NCBI RefSeq assembly: GCF_056746865.1
Contig: NZ_CM163382.1
DNA length: 64,000 bases
Strand: one strand, 5' to 3'
Shown: positions 5,890 to 19,524 of the stretch, piece after piece
Position numbering within the stretch: position 1 is the first letter of the stretch
How the letters are laid out: each line of letters begins with the position of its first letter
Translations under genes and position numbers: made by a program
The notes under the pieces: generated by a model
Told to the model about the DNA's origin: nothing
Databases searched by the model: none
What the model saw: the letters and a program-made list of their open reading frames with translations, nothing else

Positions 5890-5981
5890 TGATAAACCTC
5901 ATTACAGATTTAAGGGTGAACAAATCCCTGCCATTGCTGGCATTTTTAATCCGTTGGTATGGTGTTAATATGGCTGGAGGG

Positions 5982-12575: not shown

Positions 12576-12686
12576 ATGTCAAATACACAGAAAATTATTA
12601 ACACTGAAAAATATAACGAGTGGGTGAAAAATTCTCTGAGCAGATTTTTAAAATTACTGGCGACGAGAATGTGGCAAAAAATGAAT
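12576..12686 (+). CDS. Small basic protein (36 aa), hypothetical
   Basis: Manual translation MSNTQKIINTEKYNEWVKNSLSRFLKLLATRMWQKMN; GGAGG RBS 8 nt upstream; below track cutoff. Confidence 0.3.
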
Positions 12687-12819
12687 TAGAACCGTGGACA
12701 CCTGAAGGAAACGCACCAAATTATTGCTGGTGGGAGGTTGATCCGGTTGATGCTGCAAATGAAGCCATGAGTTACCACAACGATTAATGTCGGGAGGCCG
12801 CCCGAAAGGGCGGTAAGAA

Positions 12820-13039: not shown

Positions 13040-13243
13040 ATGGCAACTTTGACAAAAAAAGAACGGGCATGGTTGAACGAATTACAGGAAGTTCTTGATC
13101 GCTGTCCATCACCGAAAAAATTGGCTTTTACACCATTGGCGATAAAAGCATTTACCTGTATGACCTACGCCGCATGGATGAAATCATGGAGGCTCTTGAT
13201 AATCGTTCGTCGATGGATTGGTGTGTTGCTGTTCATGATATGA
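13040..13243 (+). CDS. Hypothetical small protein (67 aa)
   Basis: ATG overlapping the previous stop (TGATATG); internal Met of track ORF 12950..13243. Confidence 0.35.
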   Translation: MATLTKKERAWLNELQEVLDRCPSPKKLAFTPLAIKAFTCMTYAAWMKSWRLLIIVRRWIGVLLFMI

Positions 13244-13433
13244 ATGCAGGGTTTGATGAAAAGATTTTGTTCCCCTCATCAGTTGAAAGCACTGCGGGTT
13301 AAGGAGTAACACATGACCACTATTACCAAAGAACGTATTGAATTGTTCATTAAATTTTCAGGAGGCGGTACTGTGAGTGAAATTAGCTATCAGGCTTCAA
13401 TTACCGCTGGCATTCGCATCAAAGGAGAGGAGC

Positions 13434-13883: not shown

Positions 13884-14066
13884 ATGCGAAAGTTTAAAAT
13901 AATTATTGAAACGGGAATAGCCGGTGGAGATTTCGAGGATGAATTCGAAGTGGATGATGATGCGACGCCTGATGAAATACATGACGAAGCAAAAGATATT
14001 TTCTTTAACTACTGCAATTACTCATATCACGAAATAAAAGACGAAGAGGAAGAACAAAATGGCTGA
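13884..14066 (+). CDS. Small acidic protein, hypothetical
   Basis: 60 aa, highly acidic; start preceded by the second GGAGG/GNRA-hairpin module. Confidence 0.4.
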   Translation: MRKFKIIIETGIAGGDFEDEFEVDDDATPDEIHDEAKDIFFNYCNYSYHEIKDEEEEQNG

Positions 14067-14235
14067 TTTTGGTTCAACTAAATACAACGTCGGTTTTGAA
14101 GAATGGCATGAACTGTTAATGGACTATGCAGAGTTACGTGGTGGCAGTGCTGCTGATGCTGAAGCATGGCGTGATGATTATGAAGCAGGAAAAACTCCGG
14201 TCGAAGCATATTGTGATGAGTGGGGCGATGAATGA
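14059..14235 (+). CDS. Small acidic protein (58 aa), hypothetical
   Basis: Manual translation MADFGSTKYNVGFEEWHELLMDYAELRGG...; overlaps previous stop. Confidence 0.3.
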   Translation: MADFGSTKYNVGFEEWHELLMDYAELRGGSAADAEAWRDDYEAGKTPVEAYCDEWGDE

Positions 14236-14717
14236 GCGAGGTTAATTATCAGGAAGGGCATGAAACGGCGGGGCAAGCAAAAACAGTGGCATGGCGATAT
14301 CGCTACGTGAAAAAAAGGCGTTACGGACTTTCAGGGGAAGTAGTGGTCTGGTGACTGGAAATATGTACCGAAAAAAGAGGATTGTAACGACAGGCCGAAC
14401 TATGAAATTCAGGCCTTATTCACTGCCCCGCCAGTCCCGGTTACATCAGAAGAACTGGTTAAAGCTGTGCACTTTTATGAACAACTAAAATGCGAAAATC
14501 CACCAGCATCCGGAAACCTGATTACAGATTCCCAGATAAGGCAATGAGCTACCTGGCGCAGAACGGGCTGATAAGTATGGGGAATGTTTTACGATGAATA
14601 TTTAGACTAAAGAGTTTGTAACGCTATGTAAGTGATTTTTTCTGGTTTAGATATTTATATGTCCGGCTAAATTGAGGTGTGTTTAAATGTTATTGCACAT
14701 TGATTGTAGGGGGAATA

Positions 14718-14897
14718 ATGAAAAACGCATTGCAGTTTTTGTTTGTTGCGTTCTGGTTGTTCGCATCATGTATGCCCATCATCTTCACAGCAAGGTATAT
14801 GGAAAAAGTTGATGTTTTGATATTAATGTTTGGACATATAAATGCCCTTTTTTTAGGGGTGTTCATGGCGGTCATGTGCATTGAATACTGGCGGTAA
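14718..14897 (+). CDS. Small hydrophobic membrane protein, hypothetical
   Basis: Internal Met MKNALQFLFVAFWLF...; AT-rich surroundings. Confidence 0.3.
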   Translation: MKNALQFLFVAFWLFASCMPIIFTARYMEKVDVLILMFGHINALFLGVFMAVMCIEYWR

Positions 14898-15155
14898 ATA
14901 CAGCGAACGCCATTGGTTTAGTTGGATATTTACTGTGCCGGACAAAAACGGTTTGCGGGGAAATCTTAGTTAAGTAGAATGACTGCGGGTGCTTGAGGCT
15001 ATCTGTCTCAGGCATGAACACCAAAAGGCAGATAGAGAAAAGCCCCAGTTAACATTACGCGTCCTGCAAGACGCTTAACATTAATCTGAGGCCATATCTA
15101 TGCGACACATAGAGATTAGCCTCTTACGGACCGAAAGGTCAAGGAGAAGCAGGCT

Positions 15156-15311
15156 ATGAAGCAGCAAAAGGCGATGTTAATCGCCCTGATCGTCATCTGT
15201 TTAACCGTCATAGTGACGGCACTGGTAACGAGGAAAGACCTCTGCGAGGTACGAATCCGAACCGGCCAGACGGAGGTCGCTGTCTTCACAGCTTACGAAC
15301 CTGAGGAGTAA
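15156..15311 (+). CDS. hok: Hok/Gef-family type I toxin
   Basis: 51 aa MKQQKAMLIALIVICLTVIVTALVTRKDLCEVRIRTGQTEVAVFTAYEPEE, Hok-like TM helix plus CE(I/V)R motif; AAGGAG RBS; short overlapping upstream leader ORF (mok-like). Confidence 0.85.
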   Translation: MKQQKAMLIALIVICLTVIVTALVTRKDLCEVRIRTGQTEVAVFTAYEPEE

Positions 15312-15380
15312 GAGACCAGGCGAGGGGGAAATCCCTCGCCACCTCTGATGAGTCAGGCATCCTCAACGCACCCGCACTTA

Positions 15381-15407
15381 ACCCGCTTCGGCGGGTTTTG
15401 TTTTTTC
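15381..15407 (+). terminator. Intrinsic terminator after hok
   Basis: ACCCGC-ttcg-GCGGGT hairpin followed by TTTGTTTTTT. Confidence 0.6.
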
Positions 15408-18295: not shown

Positions 18296-18661
18296 ATGAT
18301 TGATGTCTTAGGGCCGGAGAAACGCAGACGGCGTACCACACAGGAAAAGATCGCAATTGTTCAGCAGAGCTTTGAACCGGGGATGACGGTCTCCCTCGTT
18401 GCCCGGCAACATGGTGTAGCAGCCAGCCAGTTATTTCTCTGGCGTAAGCAATACCAGGAAGGAAGTCTTACTGCTGTCGCCGCCGGAGAACAGGTTGTTC
18501 CTGCCTCTGAACTTGCTGCCGCCATGAAGCAGATTAAAGAACTCCAGCGCCTGCTCGGCAAGAAAACGATGGAAAATGAACTCCTCAAAGAAGCCGTTGA
18601 ATATGGACGGGCAAAAAAGTGGATAGCGCACGCGCCCTTATTGCCCGGGGATGGGGAGTAA
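18296..18661 (+). CDS. insC: IS2 transposase OrfA (InsC)
   Basis: [40 protein letters not shown]... matches InsC. Confidence 0.9.
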
Positions 18662-19524
18662 GCTTAGTCAGCCGTTGTCTCCGGGTGTCGCGTGCGCAGT
18701 TGCACGTCATTCTCAGACGAACCGATGACTGGATGGATGGCCGCCGCAGTCGTCACACTGATGATACGGATGTGCTTCTCCGTATACACCATGTTATCGG
18801 AGAGCTGCCCACGTATGGTTATCGTCGGGTATGGGCGCTGCTTCGCAGACAGGCAGAACTTGATGGTATGCCTGCGATCAATGCCAAACGTGTTTACCGG
18901 ATCATGCGCCAGAATGCGCTGTTGCTTGAGCGAAAACCTGCTGTACCGCCATCGAAACGGGCACATACAGGCAGAGTGGCAGTGAAAGAAAGTAATCAGC
19001 GATGGTGCTCTGACGGGTTCGAGTTCCGCTGTGATAACGGAGAAAAACTGCGAGTCACGTTCGCGCAGGACTGCTGTGACCGTGAGGCACTGCACTGGGC
19101 GGTCACTACGGGCGGCTTCAACAGTGAAACAGTACAGGACGTCATGCTGGGAGCGGTGGAACGCCGCTTCGGCAACGAGCTTCCGGCGTCTCCAGTAGAG
19201 TGGCTGACGGATAATGGTTCATGCTACCGGGCTAATGAAACACGGCAGTTTGCCCGGATGTTGGGGCTTGAACCGAAGAGCACGGCGGTGCGGAGTCCGG
19301 AGAGTAACGGCATAGCAGAGAGCTTCGTGAAAACGATAAAGCGTGACTACATCAGTGTCATGCCCAAACCAGACGGGTTAACGGCAGCAAAGAACCTTGC
19401 AGAGGCGTTCGAGCATTATAACGAATGGCATCCGCATAGTGCACTGGGTTATCGCTCGCCACGGGAATATCTACGGCAGCAAGCCAGTAATGGGTTAAGT
19501 GATAACAGGTGTCTGGAAATATAG
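18619..19524 (+). CDS. insD: IS2 transposase OrfB (InsD), DDE domain
   Basis: 301-aa ORF overlapping orfA in -1 frame, typical IS3-family frameshift arrangement. Confidence 0.9.

What the first reader, a model, noticed from the sequence alone, without database searches (positions are those of the whole stretch)
14236..14717. Apparently decayed coding region in the nin-like segment
About 480 bp lack an ORF of 60 codons or more, apart from the weak track ORF 14291..14488, but contain several short reading-frame fragments interrupted by stops. This suggests gene remnants rather than true intergenic DNA.
Basis: seen in the sequence. Interest (0 to 1): 0.2.

Follow-up and report, generated by a model that had tools for sequence, protein, structure and literature searches.

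The report
Decayed prophage gene, already annotated pseudogene
The gap is mostly the broken remains of one small phage gene of unknown function, followed by 120 bases of real spacer; this is ordinary prophage decay and public E. coli genome annotations already mark it as a pseudogene.

Summary
Window 14232-14597 (+ strand) is a single pseudogene. Its three reading-frame fragments match, in collinear order, one 171-aa hypothetical protein of lambdoid E. coli prophages (PHROG family phrog_660, function unknown). That protein is intact at the same position in other prophages, for example E. coli 55989 WP_001290001.1.

Against the intact gene the window copy carries four lesions:
- an A6-to-A7 expansion at 14310-14316, which shifts the frame;
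- a TAG stop at 14341-14343;
- a 90-bp in-frame deletion between short direct repeats, within 14494-14506;
- a 61-bp out-of-frame deletion at 14513/14514.

The lengths agree: 516 - 90 - 61 + 1 = 366 bp.

The 65-codon ORF at 14291-14488 is an out-of-frame artefact. The last 120 bp of the finding (14598-14717) are not decayed coding. They are a near-identical AT-rich spacer that also follows the intact gene and precedes a small 59-aa ORF at 14718-14897.

NCBI's PGAP pipeline already annotates 14232-14597 as "frameshifted; internal stop" in an identical genome. The same deletion junction occurs in 693 of 5426 complete E. coli genomes. This is ordinary, already known and of low interest.

The parts
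14059..14235 (+). Intact upstream 58-aa gene (phrog_519). Its TGA stop overlaps the pseudogene's ATG as ATGA.
   Evidence: ORF list; phrog_519 E 5.5e-22; annotated as an intact CDS, WP_000753057.1.
14232..14597 (+). Pseudogene: the decayed copy of a 171-aa phrog_660-family prophage gene. It is 366 bp against 516 bp for the intact gene.
   Evidence: PGAP pseudogene CA696_RS30675, 'frameshifted; internal stop', at the equivalent coordinates; alignment A3 to the intact gene L067:3001-3516; tblastn.
14232..14315 (+). Fragment 1: codons 1-28 of the parent gene, in the frame of the ATG.
   Evidence: tblastn, 96% identity to P0037 residues 1-28; phrog_660 positions 34-61.
14310..14316 (+). A7 homopolymer. 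Intact genes have A6, so the extra A shifts the frame. Other E. coli strains and IMG/VR viral contigs have A8.
   Evidence: Alignments A1 and A3; allele survey: with the shared junction, A8 in 38 loci, A7 in 14 loci plus the window, A6 in 8 loci.
14341..14343 (+). TAG nonsense codon in the ancestral frame. Intact relatives have CCG or CAG here. By inference from the protein GKQWSGDW in P0048, TAG is one C-to-T step from CAG.
   Evidence: Alignment A3; the '*' inside the tblastn match; P0048 sequence.
14344..14505 (+). Fragment 2: the stretch of the ancestral frame downstream of the TAG, matching parent residues ~38-91. It is shifted by one base relative to the ATG.
   Evidence: The tblastn match to residues 27-91 (85% identity) spans 14311-14505 across the stop; phrog_660 positions 73-124, E 8e-16.
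14291..14488 (+). The 65-codon 'weak track' ORF: an out-of-frame artefact of the same gene, not a gene in its own right.
   Evidence: No PHROG match. It lies in the third frame of the pseudogene. In A8 alleles this frame is fused to the ATG (an 85-aa CDS is called in phage 640R1).
14494..14506 (+). The single remaining copy of the direct repeat GA(G/A/C)AATCC(G/A)CCAG, which encodes ENPP/DNPP. A 90-bp in-frame deletion occurred across this repeat.
   Evidence: Alignment A3, columns 281-370. The same deletion is present in an open 141-aa ORF, P0038/L069.
14513..14514 (+). Junction of a 61-bp deletion, which puts the C-terminal module out of frame. Phage PhiR42_1 retains 57 of these bases.
   Evidence: Alignments A1 and A3. 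The exact junction is found in 56 IMG/VR contigs and in 693 of 5426 complete E. coli genomes.
14514..14597 (+). Fragment 3: the last 27 codons (KPDYRFPDKAMSYLAQNGLISMGNVLR) and the original TGA stop of the parent gene.
   Evidence: tblastn to residues 145-171, E 1.2e-8; phrog_660 positions 166-193, E 7e-7.
14598..14717 (+). Genuine intergenic spacer: 120 nt, about 31% GC. It holds the Shine-Dalgarno sequence AGGGGGA for the next ORF and an AU-rich hairpin of doubtful significance.
   Evidence: Near-identical 120-nt spacer after the intact gene in L067; no protein match in any frame; no Rfam hit of note; GC profile; fold z-score -1.8.
14718..14897 (+). A 59-aa hydrophobic small ORF downstream. 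It is not part of the remnant but sets its right-hand boundary.
   Evidence: ORF list; called as a gene in L067; homologues only in E. coli and Shigella.

Best explanation
Window 14232-14597 is a dead copy of one small accessory gene in the nin-like (replication-to-antiterminator) segment of a lambdoid E. coli prophage. The parent is a 171-aa protein of family phrog_660, whose function is unknown. It is modular: a confidently predicted N-terminal beta domain, a helical middle module and a helical C-terminal module.

The copy was inactivated in steps:
1. A 90-bp in-frame deletion between two 13-nt direct repeats removed the second helix of the middle module. That allele can still be an open ORF.
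2. A 61-bp deletion threw the C-terminal module out of frame, leaving an open 104-aa ORF that still exists in some prophages.
3. A C-to-T change created a TAG stop.
4. The A6 run upstream, no longer under constraint, slipped to A7 here and to A8 in most relatives.

The DNA probably still lies within the early-right transcription unit. Because of the ATGA overlap with the upstream gene, it probably yields only a 40-aa peptide with no expected function.

The remaining 120 bp (14598-14717) are the normal spacer before the next small ORF.

Shown: the homology, the synteny, the four lesions and the allele distribution. Inferred: the order of the events, the transcription and translation of the remnant, and the lack of function of the peptide.
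For: - Three raw frame fragments hit phrog_660 collinearly, and tblastn gives three ordered matches to the 171-aa protein.
- A syntenic intact gene exists. In L067 the order is DUF7167, the 171-aa gene, the 59-aa ORF, Hok, Rem, DUF968, RusA and an antiterminator. The intact gene is annotated as WP_001290001.1 in E. coli 55989.
- The base-level lesion map comes from alignment A3, and the arithmetic 516 - 90 - 61 + 1 = 366 matches 14232-14597.
- PGAP annotates the identical sequence as a pseudogene, 'frameshifted; internal stop'. The window is at least 99.99% identical to that genome over window 1439-33205, apart from that genome's IS4 copy.
- Intermediate alleles exist: an open 141-aa ORF with only the 90-bp deletion (P0038), and an open 104-aa ORF with both deletions, A6 and no TAG (8 IMG/VR loci, P0057/P0059).
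- The A-run length varies (A7 in 14 loci, A8 in 38) on the TAG haplotype, as expected once constraint is lost.
- The same prophage segment has two further PGAP 'frameshifted' genes, and an IS3 lies a few kb downstream.
Against: - No expression or function data are available here.
- The order of events is inferred from allele combinations, and recombination between haplotypes is evident, so the order could differ.
- The decayed allele is common, in 693 of 5426 complete genomes. That could be read as retention, although hitch-hiking within a widespread prophage explains it.
- One allele (P0063) appears to have restored an open frame through a compensating insertion. This hints at some residual selection for the N-terminal part in some lineages.
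Confidence: 0.93

Rival explanations
1. A fusion of remnants of two separate genes. The 5' part of a 119-aa phrog_660 gene would be joined to the 3' end of a separate 114-aa gene by a deletion of about 1.2 kb, which also removed Ea22- and EaA-like genes, as in the layout of phage vB_EcoS-689R5.
For: In 689R5 the two homologous parts lie in separate genes about 1.2 kb apart (L010:500-859 and 1741-2085). This was my first reading.
Against: - A single 171-aa gene containing both parts exists at exactly this position, with the same downstream spacer and 59-aa ORF.
- The phrog_660 profile itself spans both modules.
- Only 151 bp of deletion are needed relative to that gene.
- The 3' fragment is only 79% identical to the 689R5-type gene.
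Confidence: 0.04
2. A live recoded gene: the A-run acts as a programmed ribosomal or transcriptional slippage site that restores the frame and gives a functional product.
For: - A8 alleles carry the dnaX-type heptamer A AAA AAG in the zero frame, read directly from the sequence.
- The A-run length is polymorphic.
- The gene is translationally coupled to its upstream neighbour.
Against: - In the window (A7) restoring the frame needs a +1 or -2 shift, not -1.
- In every A7 or A8 allele seen, the restored frame meets the TAG (14341-14343 in the window) eight codons after the run, so no full-length product is possible.
- The C-terminal module is out of frame again because of the 61-bp deletion.
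- Intact relatives use plain A6.
- No stimulatory structure or terminator was found.
- PGAP treats it as a pseudogene, not as a programmed frameshift.
Confidence: 0.02
3. True non-coding regulatory or intergenic DNA throughout, with the frame fragments arising by chance.
For: The last 120 bp are indeed intergenic and AT-rich.
Against: For 14232-14597 the E-values against phrog_660 and P0037 go down to 8e-16 and 9e-45. The segments retained in the window align with the intact gene's DNA without further gaps.
Confidence: 0.005
4. An assembly or sequencing error in a homopolymer, in which case the gene would really be intact.
For: Homopolymer length errors are common in some sequencing technologies.
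Against: - The identical A7 allele is present in 11 independent complete genomes and in 14 IMG/VR contigs.
- The TAG and the 61-bp out-of-frame deletion are independent of the A-run and are each disabling.
Confidence: 0.005

Closest known systems
RefSeq/PGAP pseudogene CA696_RS30675 (E. coli CFSAN061770, NZ_CP023142.1 2988608-2988973), with equivalents VYI63_RS01440 and ACI3ME_RS04805
   Same: The sequence and coordinates are identical to window 14232-14597. It is annotated 'hypothetical protein; frameshifted; internal stop'.
   Different: Nothing of substance. The public annotation does not say which lesions are present or name the parent gene; this report adds both.
Intact 171-aa hypothetical protein WP_001290001.1 (E. 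coli 55989) and P0037
   Same: It holds the same genomic position, between the DUF7167 and 58-aa genes and the hokD locus. In the P0037 locus (L067) the downstream spacer and 59-aa ORF also match. The retained parts are 59-96% identical at protein level.
   Different: The window copy has the A7 frameshift, the TAG, and the 90-bp and 61-bp deletions. The 171-aa form covers at least 80% of its length in only 295 of 5426 complete E. coli genomes.
PHROG family phrog_660 (unknown function)
   Same: All three fragments match the profile collinearly.
   Different: The window has no open reading frame across the profile. The family itself is a mosaic of modules that also occur in other proteins, including some named Ead/Ea22-like or DUF551.
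dnaX-type -1 programmed frameshifting at A AAA AAG
   Same: There is a run of A's followed by G, and A8 alleles reproduce the heptamer.
   Different: The frame restored by slippage ends at a TAG after eight codons. The window's A7 would need a +1 shift. The resemblance is in sequence only.

Membership tests
phrog_660 (lambdoid prophage protein family, unknown function) | Significant match to the family HMM | tested here: met
   Raw fragments: E 0.0028, 8e-16 and 7e-7 at profile positions 34-61, 73-124 and 166-193. Repaired translation: E 1.5e-26.
phrog_660 (lambdoid prophage protein family, unknown function) | A single uninterrupted ORF encoding the protein, that is, a functional member | tested here: not met
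   A7 frameshift, TAG at 14341-14343 and a 61-bp out-of-frame deletion. It is a pseudogene member only.
Pseudogene derived from a syntenic intact gene | An intact orthologue at the same position in related genomes, with identifiable disabling lesions | tested here: met
   L067 and E. coli 55989 carry the intact 516-bp gene between the same neighbours. Four lesions are mapped.
Programmed ribosomal frameshift or transcriptional slippage gene | Slippage restores a long conserved ORF | tested here: not met
   The restored frame ends at TAG eight codons after the A-run in all A7 and A8 alleles.
Programmed ribosomal frameshift or transcriptional slippage gene | The slippery site and the frame relationship are conserved among relatives | tested here: not met
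   Intact relatives have A6 in frame. The run length varies A6/A7/A8 among close alleles.
Programmed ribosomal frameshift or transcriptional slippage gene | Shifted product detected experimentally | not testable with these tools
   This needs proteomics or ribosome profiling.
Known non-coding RNA (Rfam) | Match at or above the gathering score within 14236-14717 | tested here: not met
   The only hit is a chance-level one to ceN65 (19.6 bits, E 0.33). The sok match lies outside the interval, at 14987-15158.

The most novel reading that the evidence does not exclude
The A6/A7/A8 run could be a slippage-prone contingency switch that toggles a prophage accessory gene on and off. Alleles such as P0063, inferred to be A8 plus a compensating +1 insertion, would then be evidence that the N-terminal beta domain is repeatedly rescued by selection. 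Alternatively, the dead ORF could be kept because translation through it couples expression of the downstream 59-aa ORF and the hok locus.
Probability: 0.03. Interest if true: 0.35.

Novelty: already known. Interest (0 to 1): 0.07.

Why it matters
It matters little beyond correct annotation. The work shows that an ORF-free stretch in a densely coded prophage segment is a multiply disabled gene and not a hidden regulatory element or RNA. It also identifies the intact parent, a 171-aa phrog_660 protein.

The region gives a tidy example of stepwise prophage gene decay: a repeat-mediated deletion, a second out-of-frame deletion, a nonsense mutation and then homopolymer drift, with intermediate alleles still circulating. 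The allele is frequent, present in about 13% of complete E. coli genomes.

The parent family is widespread and uncharacterised, so any interest lies in that family and not in this dead copy.

Tried and rejected
1. **Two-gene fusion.** This was my first model, from comparison with phage 689R5. I dropped it once single proteins covering both parts turned up and the phrog_660 profile proved to span both modules.
2. **Programmed frameshift at the A-run.** Rejected from the sequence: the restored frame meets a TAG, and the window's A7 needs a +1 shift.
3. **RF2-like +1 shift at TGG TGA C (14349-14355).** I considered this from the sequence. tRNA-Trp cannot re-pair in the +1 frame, and the Shine-Dalgarno-like AGGGG lies about 10 nt upstream of the TGG codon where RF2 has about 3. 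Rejected.
4. **Family libraries.** Pfam and NCBIfam scans of the parent and neighbouring proteins found nothing.
5. **RNA and signals.** The Rfam scan found nothing inside the interval. The promoter and terminator scan found nothing on the + strand in 14000-15400. The fold of the spacer is marginal, z -1.8.
6. **Function of the parent protein.** The AlphaFold2 model is mediocre overall (pLDDT 65, pTM 0.33), with a confident beta domain at residues ~18-63. Searches of PDB sequences and folds gave only sub-threshold hits to the phage anti-activator Aqs1 (E 0.28; probability 0.77 and target-normalised TM-score 0.59). The viral fold library gave one uncharacterised protein and an Ead/Ea22-like protein with poor TM-scores. 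No function can be assigned.
7. **Literature.** One search gave only general papers on prophage decay.
8. **Selection on the 59-aa ORF.** All 6 polymorphisms are nonsynonymous but conservative. This is too few to decide.

Full report
**Observation.** The ORF list shows three + strand ORFs of at least 30 codons in 14236-14717: 14232-14354 (40 aa), 14291-14488 (65 aa) and 14490-14597 (35 aa). On the - strand none of that size lies wholly inside the interval. The sequence shows that the first ORF's ATG overlaps the stop of the upstream 58-aa gene as ATGA. It also shows that the next substantial ORF starts at 14718, behind a good Shine-Dalgarno sequence (AGGGGGA).

**Context.** The window is a lambdoid E. 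coli prophage integrated next to potC. It is at least 99.99% identical over window 1439-33205 to strain CFSAN061770, apart from an IS4 copy that only that strain carries. The finding lies between the replication genes (an O-like gene, a DnaC-like gene, DUF1627, DUF977) and hokD, DUF968, RusA and a DUF1133 gene.

**What the fragments are.**
- DNA searches show that the region is widespread: 2228 of 5426 complete E. coli genomes have a match.
- In the identical genome PGAP annotates 14232-14597 as a pseudogene, "hypothetical protein; frameshifted; internal stop". It makes the same call in two other strains.
- Related phages carry open genes here. One is a 119-aa gene in vB_EcoM-606R7 and vB_EcoS-689R5. 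A related 155-aa gene occurs in mEp460.
- Without any repair, the three frame fragments hit one PHROG family, phrog_660 (function unknown), in collinear order. They match profile positions 34-61, 73-124 and 166-193, with E-values of 0.0028, 8e-16 and 7e-7.
- The 65-aa ORF at 14291-14488 hits nothing. It is the third frame of the same gene.

**Finding the parent.** I first thought the 3' fragment came from a second gene, because in 689R5 its homologue is the end of a separate 114-aa gene about 1.2 kb downstream. That reading was wrong. A protein search with the joined fragments found single proteins that cover both parts, of 171, 141, 132 and 122 aa. The 171-aa protein P0037 is encoded at exactly this position in L067, in the order DUF7167, the 171-aa gene, a 120-nt spacer, a 59-aa ORF, Hok, Rem, DUF968, RusA and an antiterminator. 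In E. coli 55989 it is annotated as an intact CDS, WP_001290001.1.

**Lesion map** (alignment A3, checked by tblastn).
1. The A6 run is A7 at 14310-14316, which shifts the frame.
2. TAG at 14341-14343 replaces CCG or CAG in the ancestral frame.
3. A 90-bp in-frame deletion lies between the direct repeats GA(G/A/C)AATCC(G/A)CCAG, of which one copy remains at 14494-14506.
4. A 61-bp deletion at 14513/14514 puts the last 27 codons out of frame with the middle part.

The lengths agree: 516 - 90 - 61 + 1 = 366 bp, which is 14232-14597. Residues 92-144 of the parent are missing.

**Spacer.** Window 14598-14717 is near-identical to the 120-nt spacer that follows the intact gene in L067. It has no protein similarity in any frame and no Rfam match. 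The consensus scan found no promoter or terminator on the + strand. It is about 31% GC. This part of the finding is real intergenic DNA, not decayed coding sequence.

**Population and order of events.**
- The exact 61-bp-deletion junction occurs in 56 IMG/VR viral contigs and in 693 of 5426 complete E. coli genomes. The full-length 171-aa form covers at least 80% of its length in only 295 genomes.
- Among the junction-bearing contigs, 38 have A8 with TAG and 14 have A7 with TAG. Another 8 have A6 without TAG, which gives an open 104-aa ORF (P0057/P0059).
- An open 141-aa ORF carrying only the 90-bp deletion also exists (P0038).
- PhiR42_1 has A6 with TAG, keeps 57 of the 61 deleted bases, and carries its own 4-bp deletion and a stop.
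- Together these alleles suggest, by inference, the order: deletions first, then the nonsense mutation, then drift of the A-run once constraint was lost.
- The haplotype table also shows recombination. The 5' part differs by about 20 sites between the open and the TAG haplogroups, while their 3' parts are nearly identical.
- One protein cluster (P0063, 105 aa) looks like an A8 allele rescued by a compensating +1 insertion. This is inferred from the protein sequence only.

**Rivals.**
- Programmed slippage fails. In every A7 or A8 allele the restored frame ends at the TAG eight codons later, and the window's A7 would need a +1 shift.
- Sequencing error fails. The identical allele recurs in 11 complete genomes, and two other lesions are independently disabling.
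- A regulatory or RNA reading has no support inside the interval.

**Parent protein.**
- It has no Pfam or NCBIfam family.
- An exhaustive HMMER search found 455 representative proteins at E <= 0.001. Most share only one module (roughly residues 15-70, 60-115 or 108-171) in varied architectures, so the family is a mosaic.
- The AlphaFold2 model has a confident small beta domain at residues ~18-63 and low-confidence helices.
- Sequence-profile and fold searches gave only sub-threshold hints to the phage anti-activator Aqs1 for the helical middle module. The viral fold library gave poor matches that include an Ead/Ea22-like protein.
- Function remains unknown. The window copy can at most make a 40-aa peptide that contains only the first strand of the beta domain.

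**Verdict.** This is an ordinary prophage pseudogene that is already annotated, plus a normal spacer. Interest is low.

Noticed in passing
window 14718-14897 (+): A 59-aa hydrophobic ORF with a strong Shine-Dalgarno sequence. PGAP does not annotate it in the identical genome, but it is called as a gene in L067 and in 36 protein clusters, those with a source name all from E. coli or Shigella. All 6 polymorphisms among 26 haplotypes are nonsynonymous but conservative. In other phages (689R5, L069) a different 36-aa hydrophobic ORF occupies this slot.
   Followed up: partly
window 14987-15311 (+): A complete hok/sok-type toxin-antitoxin locus. Rfam sok (RF01794) matches 14987-15158 at 106.7 bits, and hokD lies at 15156-15311.
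   Followed up: partly
window 15320-15401 (+): A sub-threshold Rfam match to the Hfq-binding small RNA isrK, just downstream of hokD (26 bits against a gathering score of 50; E 0.0047).
   Followed up: no
window 12576-12787 and 13040-13302 (+): Two further genes in the same nin-like segment are annotated by PGAP as 'frameshifted' pseudogenes in the near-identical genome. Each appears in the window as a pair of overlapping short ORFs. Decay in this segment is therefore not limited to the gene studied.
   Followed up: no
window ~18296-19524, and the window 5928-5939 junction: An IS3-family element lies a few kb downstream, after the DUF1133 gene. Strain CFSAN061770 has an additional IS4 copy, absent from the window, at the position matching window ~5930.
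   Followed up: partly
window 14310-14316 and homologous loci L002-L066: The homopolymer length is polymorphic (A6, A7, A8) among otherwise very similar prophages. A8 alleles recreate the dnaX-like heptamer A AAA AAG. Gene callers then produce spurious proteins, such as an 85-aa CDS in phage 640R1 and a 152-aa Shigella protein that starts at the equivalent of the internal ATG at 14291.
   Followed up: yes
window 14594-14660 (+): A long AU-rich inverted repeat sits directly after the pseudogene's stop codon. The RNA fold has z -1.8 and there is no U-tract typical of a terminator. Its significance is unclear.
   Followed up: partly
L007 2126-2377 (-), equivalent to window ~14625-14876 (-): Phage records vB_EcoS-640R1 and 813R8 annotate a minus-strand CDS named 'hornerin' across the spacer and the 59-aa ORF. 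This is almost certainly a spurious call.
   Followed up: no
P0037 residues ~72-117 (parent protein; only the first helix survives, at window ~14450-14505): Two independent but non-significant hints point to the phage quorum-sensing anti-activator Aqs1: an HMM profile hit at E 0.28, and a Foldseek hit with probability 0.77 and rmsd 2.4 A over 49 columns. This is a lead for the uncharacterised family, not a finding.
   Followed up: partly
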